DNA of 64,000 nt from Octopus vulgaris (Eukaryota): assembly GCA_951406725.2 (NCBI GenBank), contig OX597815.1:138694001-138758000 (forward strand), given 5' to 3'. A model generated the notes under the pieces. The model saw only the letters and a list, made by a program, of their open reading frames with translations. It had not been told where the DNA came from and did no database searches. Shown here one piece after another: positions 418 to 63,601 of the stretch. Position numbers and translations under genes: made by a program. The stretch's first letter is position 1; every line of letters starts with the position of its first letter.

Positions 418-2245
418 AAGAGGTTGGTAGAGTTTTGAATTCTGAAATATTGAACGAAAAGACAATTGTATCGAAGACTTCGAATAGAGTTTCTAATAAC
501 TGGATATTCCTCCTAGATGTGTCCCAGAAGTGTACTTTTATTGGCAAATTCCAATAAGGGTGTAATCTGAGCAAACCTAAATTTTAAGAACATTTTAAGG
601 TTAATGCATTAAGAACTGAATCAACAGATATCAACAGAAGTGCCGATGCAAGATTTCATTTTATCTGTTAGGACAAACATCATGAGAATGACTAATTAAG
701 CACTTCCGGGTGACATGGTCGGGTTCAGAGATGTACAGCGATAATCTGCCCAATTTTCAAGAAAGGGAGCCGCGAAGACCCGCTTAACTACCGACCGGTT
801 TCCCTTACATCAATAATCAGCAAGATGTTCGAAGCCATCCTTAAGAAAAGTATGATGCTCCACCTCCAAAACACAGCCTCTATCTCTGATTCCCAACACG
901 GCTTCGTGCCGAAGAGATCATGCTTGACCAACTTACTGGTAATGGAAGAATTGGTGACGCGTATCCTCGATGATAGTGATGTTGTTGACATCGTTTTATT
1001 GGACTTTGCCAAAGCTTTTGACTCGGTAAACCACCGCCTATTACTTGTCAAGCTTCAAGCATATAGTTTCCATCCGGATATTGTACGATGGGTTGGTGCC
1101 TTCCTCTCAGATCGCTCTTTCCAAGTCCAACTTAATGGTTCGCGGTCCGACGTCTCCAGTGCGAGCAGTGGCATGCCTCAAGGTTCAGTGCTTGGGCCCT
1201 TATTGTTCTTAGTCTTCATAAATGACTTGCCCGACGACCTCACGCAACACACCCTTCTATTTGCCGACGATGTCAAACTGGTCGCTCCTCGCGGTGATAT
1301 AGAGGATCTTCGTCGATGTCTCCACCAAATTTAGAAATGGTCTAACAAATGGGACCTGTGTCTGAACGTGTCAAAGTGTTGTCATCTGTCTGTTGGCTCT
1401 CCTCCTGCAACTCAACTTGATTTCGAGCCGGGTCGTCTGCTGCTGGAGAGGACCGATCAGGTAAATGACCTGGGTATCTTGGTGGATTCCTCCTTTTCGC
1501 CTTCGGCCCAGTGCGTCCATGCTGCCAACAAGGCATGCGAAATTCTGTTCTTGATTCGACGGTCATTCGGAATGCTCTGAGCAGCCATATTCCTACCGCT
1601 CTATGTCACGCTGGTGAGACCCATATTGGAGTACGGGATTCAAGCCTCTTCTCCTTATCTCCTCAAAGACATACAGCATCTCGAAAGAGTCCAGAAGCTG
1701 GCTACCCGCATGGTTCTTGGTCTCAAGAATTTGTCTTATGAAGAAAGGCTGAAGACGCTGGACCTTTATTCTCTAGAAAAACGACGACGCCGTGGAGATC
1801 TCATTCTTACTCACAACATCATAAGCGGAAAGTGTAACCTCTCGAAAGAGCTGTTCTTCACTCCTGCTTCAGAGCGTCGGCTGCGGAGTCATTCCGAAAA
1901 GCTCTATCTGCGACGATTTCATCTCAATCGAAGGAGAGGGGCATTCTCTGTTCGGGTTGCGGATCCGTGGACTAAGCTGCCAGAAGAGATGGTGAAGATG
2001 CCGGCGACCGCTTTGTTCAAAGTCTCCCTTGACCTCAAGTGGCCTGAACTCTTTACATGAACACCACCCTGTACATAACTCCATGCCCCCCTACATGGCC
2101 TTGCTTTTTGCTTTTTGAGCCAAAAAAATAACTAACTAACTAAATGTATGCTATGAAAGTTAGTCTTACACAGATTGCAGAGGTTGTTAGAGCTTTGAAG
2201 TCTGAAATATTGAACGAAAAGACAATTGCATAGGAAACACTTCGA
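418..2245 (+). repeat. ~65-bp direct repeat pair (418-483 and 2177-2245), one copy on each side of the CR1 insertion
   Basis: gaggttggtagagttttgaattctgaaatattgaacgaaaagacaattg vs gaggttgttagagctttgaagtctgaaatattgaacgaaaagacaattg. Confidence 0.85.
696..2143 (+). mobile_element. 5'-truncated CR1-clade LINE (RT domain, 3' UTR, (TAAC)n tail)
   Basis: One reading frame 741-2060 broken only by stops at 1332 and 1578: PIFKKGSREDPLNYRPVSLTS, LDFAKAFDSVNH, GMPQGSVLGPLLF, FADDVKL, VRPILEYG, LERVQKLATRM, RRRRGDLI. Tail TAACTAACTAACTAA ends at 2143. Confidence 0.93.
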
Positions 2246-17375: not shown

Positions 17376-19610
17376 ATAGGGAAAAAGAATTTCGTGGAAA
17401 AGGTTTTGCCCACCTGATGAGTTCTAGGGAAAAGATATATAATAAACGATCAAAATGCACACAATTCATAAATTTCTAATATATTTTAAGGGAGAGAATA
17501 TTTTGATAATTGACCGGTTTCGCATTTCGCTAATTATGACAATGAAATTGGTGAAAATACTGCAATTGCGTATTTTCTTAAACCGTTTTAATCCATGTTG
17601 CTTGTATGAGACTTTGTTGGTAAATTAATCAGCATGTAGAAAACATTCAAGGCGAGTTAATTAGTGATTGTTATTATTCAAGACAGGGGGAGATAATTGC
17701 ACGGTTTTGGTGTGGGAACACTTTTTGGGGAGGGTAAATTTACATGAATTCGAGTTAAAGTAGTGAGATAAAATATGTACAGTACTGGCTATAGGTTCCA
17801 CAATCAAAATATTTACAAAAACCAAAATTGGTTATGCGTTAATATTCAGGTGTACCTTGTATATTTCAATAAATATATTTTCTTTATTTAATCGTTCTTG
17901 CACTAGTAGATGGGGAAAACCGTGAAGTTTGGTTGGAGATTCCCAGTACATCTCTCTATGTGTTCACTGAATGGTATCTGCCTATACCTTGAGAAACGGA
18001 TCTGATCATTATGCAGTGTAGTTTACTGTCTAAGTGACAACCTTGTTTGACGTGTATAGTTGTGTCCACACCCTGAACAAGTTATTGCATGCATAGGTGA
18101 AATTATTCTCAATTGTAAATCTCTGTGCTTGTTTAAAATGGAATTGCGAAACTTCTAGTAGGCTGGGGAATGTTCCAGAATTTGGACGTCCGCATTTTTT
18201 AACTATTGATTTCGTTATGGTTGGGTATGGCTTCTTATTTGTCAGTAGTCTTTTTAGTGATATAGGTTGTTTTTAAAATTTGTTGAATGTGTGTGTTTGT
18301 AGAACGTTCATCTTTGGATCTGTAGTGGATATTGGTAGAATTGGAATAATGGTGTTCTATGCCTCATTGTTTCTAGGGTTGTGTGTATATATATAGGGTT
18401 GTACTTTTATATGAGGTGTGGTATTTCGTTTTGTTGCCCTTAGTGTTTTGGTGTATATTTCCTTGGTACGTTTAATTCCATCATCGATAAATGAGCTTTG
18501 ATAGTGTCTCTCGGCTAGTGTTGTTCTGAAGTCTTGAAGTCGAATTATTTGTATCAGACACTATTGTGCAATGATTTTCGCTAATTTAAAAGGAATATTC
18601 TTTTGATGTGTTTCGAGTGGCATTAACTAAACAAACGATATTACTTTGTGCTCGTTGGTTTATGAGATACCGGTTTCAATTTTGTTATTGACTATATTTA
18701 TCAAAATATCTAGGAATGGGAGTTGTTCTTTGCTGTACTCCATTGTAAACTGAATATTTGGATATATATTATTTAGTAATGATTTAAAATAAAAATGTTT
18801 ATTAAAGGTTTTCATTCCGAATGGTACAGCAGTCATCCAGATATCTTTTCTAGTTCTCTCTTATATAATGGTTAGGTGGGTATCCATACTATTCTAGTGA
18901 TACTTCATGTATGGCTAATTCTAAATATCCCATTATTACGTTTGCAAGAACTGGGGCTGTTTTTGTTCCCATTGCAATTCCACATTAATATCAGGAGTGG
19001 GTGTCATCAAATACAAAGTTCTGAAGGAATAAAGTTTCAATAATAAAATCCTGGTTCATGCACTTTGGAAGTTCTTCGGGGTAATTTTCTAGCCAGAATT
19101 TGATTGGTTCTATTCTACATTTGTATGGGATATTGGTGTATGGAGTAACAGCATCGAAGGGAATCGTGATTGTTTCTTCATTAATTGATTTTGGTGGGTG
19201 GTTTAACATACCTAGAGTGTCTCTAATTAAAGTTTTGATATATTTCAAAAGGGGTTTCAGCAGGGTGTCTAGAAAGTTGCTAAGGCGTTGGGTTTCACAC
19301 GTTGGACTAGCAATAATGTGTCTTAACTTAAAATATTCAGGTGCTGGGATATTGATGTATATGACTGGTTACTGTTTGCAGGTTTCATTAATTATCTGGC
19401 TCTTCTGTATTTTAGCTAAGCTGTTGAAAAAACTAGGTTTATATATAATGTTCGTAATATAATCTATTTCCTGTCTCTCAGAACTTTTCCATATTATGAT
19501 TACAAGATTTCACATTGTTTTTTGTTGACTAGAGTTTTAAAATTTCACGTAGAATGTATCAGTTTCTAACATGGACAATACTAGATTTTTGTAGTATTTT
19601 GTGTCCACCA
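17375..19610 (-). mobile_element. Decayed Penelope-like element (RT, GIY-YIG endonuclease, 3' pLTR)
   Basis: Minus strand: KLRHIIASPTCETQRLSNFLDTLLKP, FDAVTPYTNIPY, CGIAMGTKTAP, KCGRPN, ITCSGCGHNY (GIY-YIG), and C-terminus RLNKENIFIEIYKVHLN*. Homologous to 50993-52210. Confidence 0.88.
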
Positions 19611-39238: not shown

Positions 39239-39264
39239 TATATATATATATATATATATATATC

Positions 39265-39429
39265 GGCGCAGGAGCGGGTGTGTGGTAAGAAGCTTGATTC
39301 TCAACCATATATTTCCGGGTTCAGTCCTTCTGCGTGCAACCTTGGTTAAGTTTCTTCTATTATAGCCTCGAATCGACCAAACCCTTGCGAGTGGGTTTGG
39401 TAGACGGAAACTGAAAGAAACTCGTCGTA
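39265..39429 (+). mobile_element. Family B SINE 5' half
   Basis: ggcgcaggagcgggtgtgtggtaagaagcttg...ccgggttcagtcc...gtagacggaaactgaaagaaactcgtcg. Confidence 0.88.
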
Positions 39430-39605
39430 TATGTATATATATATAACGTAAAGTATACTAGCCATTTCAATATGGCTAACCACTAAGGGTGGCTGTTACT
39501 GTAGCTTTTAGCCCCAAAAGATCATCATCTCCAGCTGGCTTTAGCCACACTTTCTGTGCCCTTATGGTATTTGCAAAGGGAGGTCATCCCTCTCTCGTAA
39601 ACCTA

Positions 39606-39666
39606 AGTGATACGCACGGACTGCAGTTTCAAGGTATTTGCCTCTTGTCAACGTACGGCAATCACC
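39606..39666 (-). ncRNA. Type I hammerhead ribozyme, U3-A8 variant (copy 1)
   Basis: GGUGAU UGC CGUACG UUGACAA GAGG CAAAUA CCUU GAAA C UGCA G UC CGUGCG U AUCACU: 6-bp stem I, internal loop and distal stem, stem II, palindromic ACUGCAGU stem III, GUC site. Confidence 0.82.
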
Positions 39667-39890
39667 GGTTTTTGATGAAGGGAGACCTGTTTGCAAATAT
39701 CTATTTAATGTTTTTCCCAGTAACTTCCGTCACTGATTTCGAAAAACTGTCTGCAAGCAATAATAAATCTCTGAACGAGATGTAAACAGTAACCGCTCGA
39801 CAACGTAAAGTATACTAGCCATCTCAATATGGCTAACCACTAAGGGTGGGTGTCACTGGAGCTTTTAGCCCCAGGAGATCATCGTCTCCA

Positions 39891-39948
39891 GATTGCCGTA
39901 CGTTGACAAGAGGCAAATACCTCGAAACTGTAGTCCGTGCGTATCACT
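39891..39948 (+). ncRNA. Type I hammerhead ribozyme, U3-A8 variant (copy 2)
   Basis: GAU UGC CGUACG UUGACAA GAGG CAAAUA CCUC GAAA C UGUA G UC CGUGCG U AUC; predicted cleavage after 39935. Confidence 0.82.
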
Positions 39949-40153
39949 TAGGTTTACGAGAGAGGGATGATCTCCCTTTGCAAATACCATAAGGGCACAG
40001 AAAGTGTGCCTAAAGCTAGCTGGAGACGATGATCTCCTGAGGCTAAAAGCTACAGTAACAGCCACCCTTAGTGGTTAGCCATATTGAGATGGCTAGTATA
40101 CTTTACCTTGTCGAGCGGTTACTGTTTACATCTCGTTCAGAGATTTATTATTG

Positions 40154-40226
<73 letters not shown>

Positions 40227-44594: not shown

Positions 44595-45880
44595 GTAATA
44601 ATGGACGAACAAGTAAATGTGTACACGAACCTAAGAACATTCTGCCCCATAGGTATACGGAAGGGCAAAAGCACAAAACCACAAACATTTAAGCGATTAA
44701 AAATTAAAATAAAATCACAAACTCCATGTCCCAACACAGTTTACTAAATATTACTTAATATGTATTATATTATCATAAAAGTTACATTGAATATATTAAT
44801 AAATTTATTAATTATACTAACCCTTACGTGGGTGCAGCCATACTGGTTCTACCACCAAATTACACTTTCAATCATACATGGTAAAAAAAAAGTGTACTAA
44901 TACACCTACAATATGAACATAAACACTTACCAAGAACTCATCCACCGAGAAATCCTAAGAAATATAAAGTAGTCCCAACAAGAACCCTTAAAACAATTAA
45001 CTTAGAGATCAAGAAAATCCTGTTGGAGTATAATATAGATGATAGGACGGAACCGTTTTCACCGATTAGAGCTAGTATAATAGTTAAGGACCATAAGGAC
45101 AATTACTTAGGTAATACACAGATCAAAATAATTTGCCCCAAGAAATCTGATTTGGGTAAGCTTATTCAGGCAATCCTAGATAAGTATATACCTACCCTGA
45201 AGAAAAAGATTAAACTCGAGTTATGGGCAAACACCCAAAGCGCAATAGGATGGTTCTCTAACATAAAACATAAGGATAAACATAATTTTTTGCAAAATTG
45301 TTACTCCTCCATAAACCCCACTACTCTAAATAGCGCGCTCATTTTTGCTAAGAACTTTACTAGGATCAGTAGAAAAGAAATCAACATAATTCTCACGGCC
45401 CGTAAGCCTATTATTGAACTTCATAATAAACTGTGGGCTAGGAAGGGCACCCCTGATTTCTTTGATATAACTATAGGATCCCCTCATTAAGCAGAGGTGA
45501 CTGGCTTTGTGGGAATATACCTATTAGACAACATCAACAAAGAATTTCCTGAATTTGGGTGGGGTGGGGGGCTCTACAGGGATGACACACCTTTTTTTAA
45601 ATTTTGAATAGACACCTCTAATAGACGCCTTGAACTACTTAAGAAATGTCTGTATAAATCCTTTAATAGATTCAGCCTCTCTAAAATGAAAACTAGTTTA
45701 TCAACTACCTGGACGTTAATTGTAATTTAAATACAGGTTTACATAAACCTTACATGAAACCTAACTCTAATTTAAAGTATATTAACTATCAAAGTAACCA
45801 CCCACAATCAGTAAAAAGAGCTCTAATAAGTGGCATTAGCAAAAGAATTTCCTATCTCACTTCTAATGAGGACCTATATA
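44595..45880 (+). mobile_element. Decayed PLE RT of a second lineage (YRDD type)
   Basis: SIIVKDHKDNY...ICPKKSDLGK...LWANTQSAIGWF...FDITIGS...GLYRDD...NYLDV...KPYMKPNSNLKYINYQSNHP. Confidence 0.8.
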
Positions 45881-47019
45881 TAATATATATAATTTGAAAG
45901 TATCTTCTTTTCAGCTACTACTTATCATGTATCTAGTTCTCTGCACTTACTGGATACATCGTAAAAATATTATCACAAATGAAAATTTGAGAGTATACAA
46001 AGTTTGGTTTAGATTTAAACTAGTAATCCATCGGTGGGTATTAGAGCGAATACATTACCTTTATTCAATAGAATGATGAATGATTAAACTTAGACTTAGA
46101 TAAACTTAGATATGTTTCGACCAAAGATTGGTCCAGGCCATGTCTAACTTAATAGCACCACCTGATTAATATATCTTTATGATAAAAACCTTTTCTTTTA
46201 TTAATCAACTATATATTGGAGCGCATGTTCTTTACTTATTGAAATATATGTAAGAACCTTAATTCACGAGGGTAGTATCGAGGTAGTAGTATCATTACTT
46301 GAGAAACTAGCGATGTTAAATAACTTCAATTTAATTTTATTCAAGATTGGTATTTCAAATGACTGAAGCAATATTTGTATGTTTAGCGTTTCGTTATTAA
46401 ACGTAAAATATAATTGTGTGAATATTGTTTATCTACAGTTTGTATATTTGCCATTGAAAACTGTAGGTGTCTGTTAAATGATCAAGTATCGTGGAATTAT
46501 ATTTTCATCAGTGGCTGACAAGCCATCTTAAGTGTTAATAAACAAAACAGTTTGTCAAAATGATTAGAGATAAAGTGGAATGCAGCAAGCTTATATTTTT
46601 TATATGAATATTATTATCAAACAAGTAGTGTAAGAGTATTATTTCAGGGGCAAAGTTTTTTCCAAACAAAATAGTCATATATCAGAAACTATGCACAACA
46701 CTAAAAAATGACACATGGTGTGTGTGTCAGCATTGAAAGACACTTTATATCTCACTGACAGTCATTATAATTGGATGTCTAGTGATATCGATATCAGTTT
46801 TGAAATCTATCTTATTTGGTATATTTACATTTCAAGAAATGTAAATATACCAAACAACAGAGGTTCGAAATGTTGGCTAAATGGAATGAAGACTACACAA
46901 GTAAGTTGGTTTAGATAGAATGATGTTAAGAGGAATTTTTGTAAAGGAAGACGTAGATTAAAGTAGCAAGTTCAGTTTAAATTGCTGAAAACTGGAGATT
47001 TTTTTTCTCTTTAACTTAT

Positions 47020-50090: not shown

Positions 50091-50144
<54 letters not shown>

Positions 50145-50148
<4 letters not shown>

Positions 50149-50454
50149 GAAATGAAGAAAATGCTGACAAAATAATTTAAGTAAAGGAGAGTGTATTTAA
50201 TTAGGTGAGAGTTCTTTTTACCGGTTGCACATTTGTTATGCTTATCAAAAGATATTTTTTAAGAGAGATAGAGTTCCTTTCTGATAGATTTTTTCTATAA
50301 GAGAAAAAATCTATCAGACAGGAATTCTATCTCTCTTAAAAATATATCTTTTGATAAGCATGACAAATGCGCAACCGGTAAAAAGAACTTTCACCTAATT
50401 AAATACACTCTCCCTTACTTAAATTATTTTGTCAGCATTTTCTTCATTTCCTTT
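50145..50454. repeat. 310-bp foldback palindrome derived from a PLE pLTR-like sequence
   Basis: Arms 50145-50296 and 50302-50454 are near-perfect reverse complements around a 5-nt spacer; each arm carries a hammerhead-like remnant. Confidence 0.9.
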
Positions 50455-50493
50455 TTTTATATATCACAACTCGTGTTCCACATCTACCTTTTT

Positions 50494-50574: not shown

Positions 50575-52210
50575 AGGGAAAAGTAGGAAAAAAATAAGCG
50601 AAAATGCACATTGGAAATCAAAAGTAAAGTCTTTTTTATGAAAAGTAATGATAAATATATAAACAATTAGATGAACTGAGGTAGGAATAAAATTAATAAA
50701 AGTCATTACTGAGAATTATTAAAGAGATTTAAAAGCATACCCGTTTCGTGAATCATTGCTTTGAATGCACTTCGATTAATGAACGGTCTCAGGTCTACTA
50801 GTCCCTGAGTAAAAAGATTGTGTAAGGGAGGTAAGTAGTTCTGGATTTGGTGCAATTAGGGTTGATATAGATCTTTAATGTGAATGGTGTATGGGATGTA
50901 TGGGTGTTAGTGGAATTCATTGAAAGGTTAGTAGTGTTCTGTATTATGTTATGTGTTCATATTGAGTTGTGGAAGATATTTATTGATGAAAGTTGCCTCT
51001 TTATTCCAAAGTTTCTCCAAGTTTATGCATTAATGTTCCTCACTCTACCGACCTCAAACTGAGACCCATCATTGCTGGCCCTATTTGTGAAACCAACCGT
51101 TTGAGCAACTTCCTCGACATCTTACTCAAACCGTTTCTAACATATGTGAAAAGCTTCATCAGGGATGACTTACAGATGCTGAACCAATTCACGAAGACAG
51201 TAAATGAAGGAACACGGTTAGTATCATTCGATGTGGTGAATTTGTACGCCAATATCCCACACGACTATGGTATAGAAGCGATCACCTTATGGCTAGAAAA
51301 ATATCCAGAAGAGATCCCAGGACGCATTAACCACAGATTCATAATCGCAGCACTCAAATTCATCCAACTGAATATCTATTTCATGTTCGATACAGTTTAC
51401 CATCGACAAAAATGTGGAATTGCAATGGGAACCCAAGCTGCTCAAGTGATAGCGAACCTTGTAATGGGTTACTTAGAGCTTAAGTTATATCAATCATCAC
51501 TACAAAAATATGGCACCTCATTTCATTGCTATTTAAAGGAGAACTGGATGATGTATTTGGACGATTGTTTCATACTTTGGAAAGACAGCATGGACAAACT
51601 CCTCGATTTCAAAAGTAATATTTAACAATATTAATAGCAACATACAATTCATCATGGAGCACAGTAGTGAACAATTCCCTTTTCTTGACATCCTAATTAA
51701 AATAGTCAATAACCACATAGAAACAGATAACTTTTATAAACTCATAGATTCTAAACAATACCTATTTTTTAACTCATGCCACCACAAACACATAAAAATT
51801 AATATACCTTATAATCTAGCGAAAAGAACATGTACCATAGTTTCGGACACCTATACTCGTGTACGAAAACTCCTCGAACTCAGATCAATACTAATCAAAA
51901 GATATTACCCAATATCATTAATAAATGATGGCATTAAACGAGCTATGGAAATAGATATACGAACATTAATTGAAATCAACCGAAATACCAAACCAGACTT
52001 AAAAATATTCCCGTACATCCCCACTCATAACCCTAGAAACAACGAAGCCTTCAGCATTATCACCCAATATCATCCCATTCTCACAAGAGACAAAACAATG
52101 AACAAAATTTTTAGCTCACACAAAATTATCAAAAGCAAAATTCAATCTAAATCATTGAAAAAAATATTAACCAGTCCTTATGTTTACAAGGGGGAGACAA
52201 GCACCTCCTC
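50575..52210. mobile_element. Penelope-like element with inversion: 3' end on minus (50575-50992), RT on plus (50993-52210)
   Basis: Plus: LRPIIAGPICETNRLSNFLD, SFDVVNLYANIPH, CGIAMGT, WMMYLDDCFILW, FLDILI. Minus from ~50990: FINKYLPQLNMNT* (PLE C-terminus), then UTR into (TA)n. Confidence 0.88.
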
Positions 52211-52224
52211 CCAGCTAAGCTTGA

Positions 52225-52268
52225 AATCAGAGACTAGTTTCTGAGTCTTTGCTCGTCATCAGTATGGA
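52225..52268 (-). ncRNA. Decayed type I hammerhead ribozyme with canonical core
   Basis: UCCAUA CUGAUGA CGAG CAAAGA CUCA GAAA C UA G UC UCUGAU: intact core and palindromic ACUAGU stem III, but mismatches in stem I and the first pair of stem II. Confidence 0.6.
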
Positions 52269-52376
52269 CACAGGAAATATGTTAAGGCCGACAGGAAGCG
52301 TTGATGCTTCCTAGGGCTAAATAGCAGTTGTGTGATTCCCTTCGTGGGACTGTCACATTAAGTTGACAGTATACAG

Positions 52377-52479
<103 letters not shown>

Positions 52480-63038: not shown

Positions 63039-63601
63039 TCTTTTCTACTCGAATTTTTGGGAGAGGGGGACAGTCGATTTGATCGACCCCAAGACGCATC
63101 TGGTACTTACTTTATCGAACCCGAAAGGATGAAAGGCAAAGTCGACCTCGGCAGAATTTGAACTCAGAACGTAAAGACAGACGAAATACCTATTTCTTTA
63201 CTACCCGTAAGGGGCTAAACACAGAGAGGACAAACAAGGACAGACAAACGGATTAAGTCGATTATATCGACCCCAGTACTGGTACTTATTTAATCAACCC
63301 CGAAAGGATGAAAGGCAAAGTCGACTTCGGCGGAATTTGAACTCAGAACGTAACGGCAAACGAAATACCTATTTCTTTATTACCCACAAGGGGCTAAACA
63401 TAGAGGGGACAAACAAGGACAGACATTAGTATTAAGTCGATTACATCGACCCCAGTGCGTAACTGGTACTTAATTTATCGACCCCGAAAGGATGATAGGC
63501 AAAGTCGACCTCGGCGGAATTTGAACTCACAACGTAACGGCAGACGAAATACCACTGAACATTTCACCCGGCGTGCTAACATTTCTGCCAGCTCGCCGCC
63601 T
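63039..63601 (-). mobile_element. Trimeric family A SINE (one head, three bodies)
   Basis: cgaaaggatgaaaggcaaagtcgac-like block recurs three times at ~180-bp spacing; the head GGCGGCGAGCTGGCAG occurs only at ~63600. Confidence 0.9.

What the first reader, a model, noticed from the sequence alone, without database searches (positions are those of the whole stretch)
39453..39564. Unnamed ~112-nt covarying RNA domain shared by two different hammerhead elements
Seen: 39453-39564 (+) aligns with 52374-52263 (-). Shared order: GTATAC; hairpin TAGCCA/TGGCTA vs CTGTCA/TGACAG, both with 8-nt loops; CCACnAAGGG; ACTG; TTTAGCCCy; hairpin GGAGA/TCTCC (intact in the 39802 and 39891 copies) vs GGAAGC/GCTTCC; GGCyTTA; CAyAyTTyCTGTGyCCwTA. 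Stems differ in sequence but keep pairing, and AGGG could pair with CCCy. The hammerhead is on the same strand as the domain at 52k and on the opposite strand at 39k. Inference: a selected cis-element, such as an RT recognition signal, promoter or second catalytic RNA.
Basis: partly seen in the sequence, partly recalled or inferred. Interest (0 to 1): 0.82.

Follow-up and report, generated by a model that had tools for sequence, protein, structure and literature searches.

The report
Structured start module of octopus retrozymes
The shared RNA domain is real: it is part of a conserved folded head on thousands of small hammerhead-ribozyme repeats (retrozymes) whose genomic copies end at two fixed points in that head, so it likely tells a borrowed Penelope-type reverse transcriptase where to start copying.

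Summary
Both instances are the 3' part of about 353-364-nt tandem, non-coding repeats carrying a type I hammerhead (non-LTR retrozymes), in a probably octopus genome.

Hammerhead-then-domain gives 6,512 matches against 529 control; the antisense arrangement is not above control. The 52k 'same strand' case is a local inversion.

Across 23 copies the domain folds into P1, P2, a long P3 enclosing P4, P5 and an unpaired stretch, then P6; 87% of cells pair. Covariation is strong collectively but weak per pair (1 of 40 in a tree-aware test).

Insertions end at two sites: just after P5 inside the P3 junction, and about 45-63 nt later. They are flanked by (TA)n and often inverted. This matches the published two-site 'tail' signature of Penelope-like (PLE) reverse transcription.

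No Rfam match covers the domain. None of the autonomous PLE families inspected carries it, so the helper is unidentified. Best reading: a retrozyme RT-start module. It is a new variant of a known kind.

The parts
39445..40155 (.). Family-A retrozyme insertion: one full 357-nt monomer and a partial unit on -, an inversion, then a unit plus 46-nt tail on +; (TA)n on both flanks
39613..39657 (-). Type I hammerhead, U3-A8 core variant (UUGACAA...GAAAC UGCA GUC); predicted cut after 39619
   Evidence: no Rfam hit at this copy, relatives score 28-32 bits with hammerhead models
39568..39699 (-). Extended stem-I rod carrying the hammerhead, closed by TATTTGCAAA/TTTGCAAATA
39453..39564 (-).
39445..39459 (-). 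Unpaired stretch after P5; this copy ends here at site 1, followed by (TA)n
39802..39896 (-). Partial unit (P2b to P5) continuing into P3 3' strand 39787-39794 and P6 39767-39781 of the next monomer
39897..39941 (+). Second type I hammerhead (U3-A8 core); predicted cut after 39935
39994..40144 (+). Complete domain: P1 39994-40010, P2 40014-40044, P3 40053-40060 with 40117-40124, P4 40062-40074, P5 40077-40094, P6 40130-40144
   Evidence: (163 bits with model R1, built partly from close relatives)
40110..40155 (+). 46-nt tail between site 1 and site 2; ends in (TA)n
52174..52263 (-). Inverted 5' segment of the family-B copy, containing the hammerhead core CUGAUGA...GAAAC UA GUC (52228-52262)
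52263..52381 (+). Family-B domain: P1 52267-52283, P2 52286-52318, P3 5' strand 52324-52332, P4 52337-52349, P5 52351-52368; ends at site 1 before (CT)n(AT)n
50580..52175 (.). Decayed Neptune-type PLE (inverted pLTR about 50580-50985; RT region 50990-52175 on +), cut off before its endonuclease by the family-B copy; other copies of this family have their own pLTR without the domain

Best explanation
The domain is the conserved folded head of a non-autonomous hammerhead retrozyme superfamily, and it likely positions a borrowed Penelope-like reverse transcriptase at two internal start sites.

Shown by sequence:
- Units are 353-364-nt tandem monomers with a type I hammerhead followed by the domain on the same strand.
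- There are thousands of copies.
- Copies end either 0-20 nt after hairpin P5 or about 45-63 nt further on, against (TA)n, often as inverted pairs with one kind of end on each side.

Predicted: the monomer folds into a rod with the hammerhead at one end and a multi-helix head at the other, where P3 encloses P4, P5 and an unpaired stretch of about 20 nt holding site 1.

Inferred from the retrozyme and PLE literature: tandem transcripts are cut by the hammerhead and ligated into circles. A PLE RT-endonuclease binds the head, nicks both strands of a TA target, and starts cDNA at site 1 and site 2. Copying round the circle or multimer then gives the tandem, inverted, tailed insertions.
For: - Orientation: vs 92.
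- Copy number: 6,502 pattern matches vs 53 control, a pattern that family B does not match.
- Structure: 86.7% of 913 cells pair and 23 of 40 pairs show double changes; slid controls pair 35-46%. All 23 pairs RNAalifold predicted on the unfitted alignment lie in P1-P5. In the tree-aware test the mean score of the 40 pairs was 3.36 vs a maximum of 2.51 in 20,000 null draws.
- Strand: circular monomers fold better in sense in 4 of 4; 19 of 23 single domains fold better in sense; G-U 60 vs A-C 38.
- Ends: 106 of 110 terminated copies of families A-C end in the two windows. In copies picked only by hammerhead plus P1, 29 of the 30 with a nearby TA run fall in the same two clusters.
- Family C: 19 of 20 loci contain both strands, mostly with TA on both flanks.
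- Hammerhead under selection: positions 3/8 are C-G in 45 and U-A in 37 of 91 cores.
- PMC11167929 (main text parts 1-2 of 4 read): a PLE RT starts at two internal sites downstream of its hammerhead, the stretch between is the genomic tail, both target strands are cut and extended, and the minimal RNA spans the region between hammerhead and start sites.
Against: - No autonomous PLE with this domain was found. The window's Neptune family, two intact Neptune families and an intact second-clade family have hammerheads followed by short AT- or pyrimidine-rich 3' ends. Of 214 domain copies with at least 600 nt upstream, only the window's rearranged copy and L152 had a PLE ORF upstream, and neither is a pLTR. 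Recognition would therefore have to be by mimicry, by a short motif, or by an unsampled family.
- Only 1 of 40 pairs is individually significant in the tree-aware test, and no pair is significant all-against-all.
- RNAalifold gave the antisense alignment a slightly lower total energy (-10.9 vs -9.2), though with a smaller covariation term.
- Loci were chosen by queries reaching to site 1 (A, B) or site 2 (C), which biases against earlier ends; one search is less biased but small.
- Another hammerhead repeat family (E, L218) spreads without this domain.
- Transcription, cleavage, circularity and protein binding were not shown.
Confidence: 0.6

Rival explanations
1. The helices are kept only so that the circular RNA is compact and stable, ligates, and leaves the hammerhead free to fold. 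RT start sites are set by short local sequence or accessibility, not by the domain.
For: Retrozyme circles are generally described as highly self-paired (PMC7229834, parts 2-4 of 6 read). The whole monomer is paired, not only the domain. Autonomous PLEs here lack the domain yet make tails. A short YCGT motif lies just 3' of site 1 in many retrozyme rows and in Neptune tails (seen by eye, not tested).
Against: Loop and junction letters are conserved at up to about 56% overall divergence (ACAG...TGT, the P2 internal loop, GCCA/TGGC with an ATT loop), which general stability would not require. Site 1 sits in the one long unpaired stretch enclosed by P3 in all families aligned.
Confidence: 0.25
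2. The domain serves transcription or export of the retrozyme RNA: an internal promoter or a host-protein binding site.
For: Non-autonomous repeats need a way to be transcribed; some hammerhead repeats are recalled to use Pol III or snRNA-type promoters (recalled, no call). Invariant letters could be read as DNA.
Against: No B box was found in the three sequences scanned, and a single A-box-like match was found, in a multi-unit locus. Compensatory pairing points to RNA, not duplex DNA.
Confidence: 0.08
3. The domain is a second, undescribed ribozyme, possibly on the antisense strand as in viroid-like symmetric replication.
For: It is a compact multi-helix fold with conserved loops; the antisense strand folds with comparable energy.
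Against: No ribozyme family other than hammerhead matches either strand at permissive E-values. Wobble asymmetry favours the hammerhead strand. The proposed pseudoknot lacks covariation. A second sense cut would open the circle.
Confidence: 0.05

Closest known systems
Metazoan non-LTR retrozymes (Cervera and de la Pena 2020, PMC7229834; mussel repeats of about 350-390 bp, axolotl 331/353 nt)
   Same: Short tandem non-coding repeats with a type I hammerhead, similar size, no LTR, predicted highly self-paired circle.
   Different: In the parts read, that paper gives energy-minimum folds per species and proposes PLE mobilisation. It describes no conserved covarying domain and no mapped RT start sites, and says sequences are species-specific. 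Its supplement could not be read and may hold related sequences.
Poseidon PLE of Anolis (PAc; Frangieh et al. 2024, PMC11167929)
   Same: Hammerhead upstream, two internal RT start sites, the tail between them, AT-rich target, both strands extended.
   Different: PAc is autonomous, its binding region lies in the first 172 nt of the ORF, and its tail is 30-40 nt. Here the element is non-coding, tails are about 45-63 nt, and site 1 lies in a three-helix junction.
Retrozymes as pLTR derivatives of PLEs (Li, Clavereau, Pollet, bioRxiv 10.64898/2026.07.22.740005, parts 1-3 of 5 read)
   Same: Retrozymes and PLEs co-occur in the genome; non-autonomous status.
   Different: In Xenopus, 24 of 57 families matched annotated repeats, 21 of the 22 matched elements being PLEs. 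Here no inspected PLE pLTR is homologous to the domain.
Neptune-type and second-clade (CxCx5C linker, Hydra- or Nematis-like) PLEs of this genome
   Same: (TA)n targets, inversions, tails, minimal hammerheads; the intact Neptunes use the same U3-A8 core.
   Different: They encode RT and GIY-YIG proteins and lack P1-P6.

Membership tests
Non-LTR retrozyme | Type I hammerhead in each unit | tested here: met
   Core, stems I-III by pattern; Rfam Hammerhead_1 32.2 bits (gathering 34) in L217 and HH9 28.5 bits in L204; window copies do not reach Rfam thresholds
Non-LTR retrozyme | Tandem repeats of 150-450 bp | tested here: met
   357-nt spacing in the window; 353, 362 and 364-nt monomers and multi-unit arrays
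Non-LTR retrozyme | No protein coding; not the terminal repeat of an ORF-bearing element | tested here: met
   Units run into the next unit; 2 of 214 copies have a PLE ORF upstream and neither is contiguous with it as a pLTR
Non-LTR retrozyme | Self-cleavage and accumulation as circular RNA | not testable with these tools
   Only contigs were available; they cannot show ends, strand or circularity
PLE-mobilised element | Two 3' end classes separated by a tail | tested here: met
PLE-mobilised element | Inverted 5'-truncated segment and (TA)n target | tested here: met
   hallmarks as in PMC8557442 passages
PLE pLTR derivative | Sequence or structure homology to the pLTR of an autonomous PLE in the host | tested here: not met
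   No model R1 or HMM hit in the pLTRs of the families inspected; only a few of many PLE families were sampled (32,094 and 20,780 protein candidates)
Known self-cleaving ribozymes other than hammerhead, and other Rfam families | Match to the family model on either strand | tested here: not met
   only weak chance-level hits (E 0.7 or worse) overlap the domain

The most novel reading that the evidence does not exclude
The head is a retrozyme-specific RNA module, unrelated to any host PLE terminal repeat, that captures a telomerase-related PLE reverse transcriptase in trans and fixes its template start inside a three-helix junction. It would be a portable, telomerase-RNA-like template-positioning element that could direct any attached RNA circle into TA repeats.
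Probability: 0.25. Interest if true: 0.75.

Novelty: new variant of a known kind. Interest (0 to 1): 0.47.

Why it matters
How animal retrozyme circles are recognised and copied back into the genome is open; PLE mobilisation has been proposed from co-occurrence and pLTR similarity. Here non-coding retrozymes show the PLE two-site tail signature, and one start site maps inside a conserved, covarying RNA junction. The genome also holds very young retrozyme copies (98-99% identical) and intact PLE ORFs, so helper identity and the RNA determinant can be tested directly with the published in vitro assay. If the domain only stabilises the circle, this is a well-described new retrozyme superfamily and little more.

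Tried and rejected
- Rfam at gathering threshold on the window: 0 hits. Permissive scans found only hammerheads and microsatellite-driven miRNA hits.
- Resemblances to pistol, twister, twister-sister and hairpin ribozymes (recalled consensus features) were considered by eye and dropped: element order or core letters did not hold across families.
- A long-range CATAAGG/CCCTT pairing seen in A and B is not kept in C or D and was rejected.
- The adjacent window PLE as the parent of family B was rejected: none of the other 29 copies fetched showed the domain after the RT in the output seen; their 3' ends are shown, and 14 of them were scanned with R1 without a hit.
- Metagenome pattern scan: 120 stretches; model R1 on 100 of them gave no hit better than E 0.55.
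- Searches for Neptune relatives in GTDB and viral contigs found none.
- No RNA holder listed among sequencing runs; contigs from four runs cover the monomer but say nothing on expression.
- Scripts that failed in part: the first end-mapping used poor references for B and C (redone); no natural full B monomer was found for circular folding; the P5 pattern matched nothing, so distances there are from P1.
- Five of 29 cluster rows (truncated or deleted) were dropped before the tree-aware test.
- Literature: eight full-text searches returned no paper on octopus retrozymes or on this domain. Repbase, Dfam, subscription papers and the unreadable supplement of PMC7229834 were not seen, so these repeats may already be catalogued as unclassified or PLE-like families.

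Full report
OBSERVATION. The two stretches align as described: 72 identities in 116 columns, z = 8.2 against shuffles. No Rfam family reaches its gathering score in the window, and permissive scans of both regions give only chance-level hits. The window lies in a 2.8-Gb genome. That it is an octopus is my inference from recalled SINE sequences and from octopus and argonaut names among related proteins; it was not tested.

WHAT THE ELEMENTS ARE. Each instance belongs to a high-copy family (2,152 and 2,305 first-look candidates). The 39k insertion spans 39445-40155 and is built from a 357-nt unit in tandem and inverted arrangement between (TA)n tracts. A pattern joining the hammerhead core to the first hairpin finds 6,512 places vs 529 control; the antisense arrangement finds 526 vs 745 (spacer range 30-55). 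Among BLAST-selected loci the orientation was sense in 33, antisense in 8, both in 2 and undetermined in 19 of 62 copies, although the B query itself contained the inversion. Random and pattern-picked stretches revealed further subfamilies: C, whose copies are 98-99% identical and form arrays, D, and several older ones. In total, 83 full-length distinct copies fell into 29 clusters with mean pairwise identity 63% and minimum 44%. These are non-LTR retrozymes by the features given in PMC7229834 (parts 2-4 of 6 read) and bioRxiv 10.64898/2026.07.22.740005 (parts 1-3 of 5 read). Contigs of runs labelled as four organisms hold family A words; the four runs laid, from three of those labels, cover the monomer.

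STRUCTURE. On the hammerhead strand the domain is: P1 (6 bp, 5-nt loop starting with G); P2 (4 bp, a 4x3 internal loop, 6 bp, usually a GAUG loop); P3 (7-10 bp), which encloses hairpins P4 and P5 and about 20 unpaired nt; then P6. On a MAFFT alignment of 23 natural copies, 86.7% of 913 cells pair, 23 of 40 pairs show changes on both sides, 0 of 500 shuffles reach this, and slid controls pair 35-46%. The structure was derived by eye from these sequences, which favours it over the slid controls. RNAalifold on the same alignment predicted 23 pairs, all in P1-P5. A tree-aware null of my own (24 of 29 cluster rows; not R-scape) is more sober: the 40 pairs together exceed every one of 20,000 null draws, but only one P3 pair is individually significant (E 0.029) and none is all-against-all; there are few independent lineages. 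For strand, G-U cells outnumber A-C cells 60 to 38, and 19 of 23 domains and 4 of 4 circular monomers fold better in sense. Against this, the antisense alignment had the lower RNAalifold total energy. Circular folding places the hammerhead at one end of a rod and the domain in a branched head at the other, with further hairpins after P6. The hammerhead 3-8 pair is C-G in 45 and U-A in 37 of 91 cores; that U3-A8 is a compensatory active variant is recalled.

WHERE COPIES END. Measured from P5:
Family A: 21 copies end at 5-20 nt and 17 at 50-80 nt, of 45 (5 run on, 2 other).
Family B: 14 and 16 of 33 (2 run on, 1 other).
Family C: 16 and 22 of 55 (16 reach the end of the 118-nt reference, 1 other).
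These loci were selected by queries reaching site 1 or site 2. In a set selected only on hammerhead plus P1 (58 matches, 50 passing a loose domain filter), 30 had a TA run within 330 nt: 12 at 88-107 nt and 17 at 141-169 nt after P1, one at 116 and none earlier. In family C, 19 of 20 loci contain both strands, typically site 1 at one end and site 2 at the other with TA on both flanks. PMC11167929 (parts 1-2 of 4 read) shows that a purified PLE protein cuts and extends both strands of an AT-rich target and starts at two internal RNA sites downstream of the hammerhead, the stretch between being the genomic tail. PMC8557442 (passages) lists tails, inversions and (TA)n targets as PLE hallmarks. 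The retrozyme ends therefore read as RT start sites (inference), and site 1 lies in the unpaired stretch inside the P3 junction.

THE HELPER. The Neptune-type ORF next to the 52k copy is not the parent: its family continues into a GIY-YIG domain and a different pLTR with its own hammerhead. The genome holds two Neptune families with intact, about 99% identical ORFs and an intact second-clade family. Their 3' ends have a hammerhead, a short AT-rich stretch and, in the Neptunes, tails of about 38-43 nt, but no P1-P6. Among 214 domain copies with at least 600 nt upstream, only the window's rearranged copy and one insertion downstream of a second-clade element had an ORF upstream. Small shared features hint at a Neptune helper: the U3-A8 core, a YCGT motif just after site 1, and ATATTTCTATT at site 2 of families B and C and of the window's Neptune family. 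These were seen by eye and not tested. Only a handful of many PLE families were inspected.

MECHANISM AND RIVALS. Most likely (0.6) the head binds a PLE RT-endonuclease in trans and presents the template start. The main rival (0.25) is that the fold serves circle stability and hammerhead folding while short local signals set the start. A promoter or host-protein site (0.08) and a second ribozyme (0.05) have little support. Shown: homology, orientation, copy structure, end positions, collective pairing. Predicted: the fold. Inferred: transcription, cleavage, circularisation, RT binding.

NOVELTY. Retrozymes, their proposed PLE dependence and PLE internal initiation are published. Eight searches of the held library returned nothing on this superfamily or on a conserved covarying retrozyme domain with mapped start sites. 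Repeat databases, subscription papers and one unreadable supplement were not seen. The scan's own index held no note on this sequence or genome and one note on a different PLE RNA motif in another genome, not tested here. Verdict: a new variant of a known kind, interest 0.47.

Noticed in passing
L112:1594-1782 (-); loose ends: A very abundant repeat with Helentron-like ends (label recalled) carries a captured piece of the domain (P3 5' strand, P4, P5 and the start of the unpaired stretch, about 60 nt).
   Followed up: no
L218, L107:4293, L405-L416: A separate hammerhead repeat family (E; 2,366 candidates) with a U3-A8 core, tail and TA target but without P1-P6. An antisense fragment resembling it is fixed in the 3' region of the intact second-clade PLE.
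   Followed up: partly
retrozyme families A, C, E and intact Neptune families (L361, L364, L367): The U3-A8 hammerhead core occurs in several lineages, alongside C3-G8 sister subfamilies (37 vs 45 of 91 cores).
   Followed up: partly
L361 (-), L374 (+): An intact Neptune family has an upstream coding region out of frame with the RT ORF, a 38-nt tail starting at ATATATA, and a CTCGTGTG/CACACGAG stem enclosing site 2 just before the ATG.
   Followed up: partly
L364, L367, L417-L420: Two young autonomous PLE families carry 2-3 kb microsatellite-rich 3' regions between ORF and hammerhead.
   Followed up: no
window 50135-50464: A 126-nt inverted-repeat element between (TA)n tracts with a Neptune-like tail motif; probably the truncated end of another PLE family.
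   Followed up: no
window about 17500-19368 (-) and 44885-45900 (+): Decayed PLE fragments of a second Neptune family and of the second clade.
   Followed up: partly
window 39264-39430 and 63072-63553: SINE-like repeats resembling octopus SINEs (recalled); the latter is a 179-bp tandem of 2.6 copies. The 39k retrozyme sits in the TA tail of the former.
   Followed up: no
window 714-2060 (+): Fragments of a non-LTR retrotransposon RT (Pfam RVT_1, E 1e-27).
   Followed up: no
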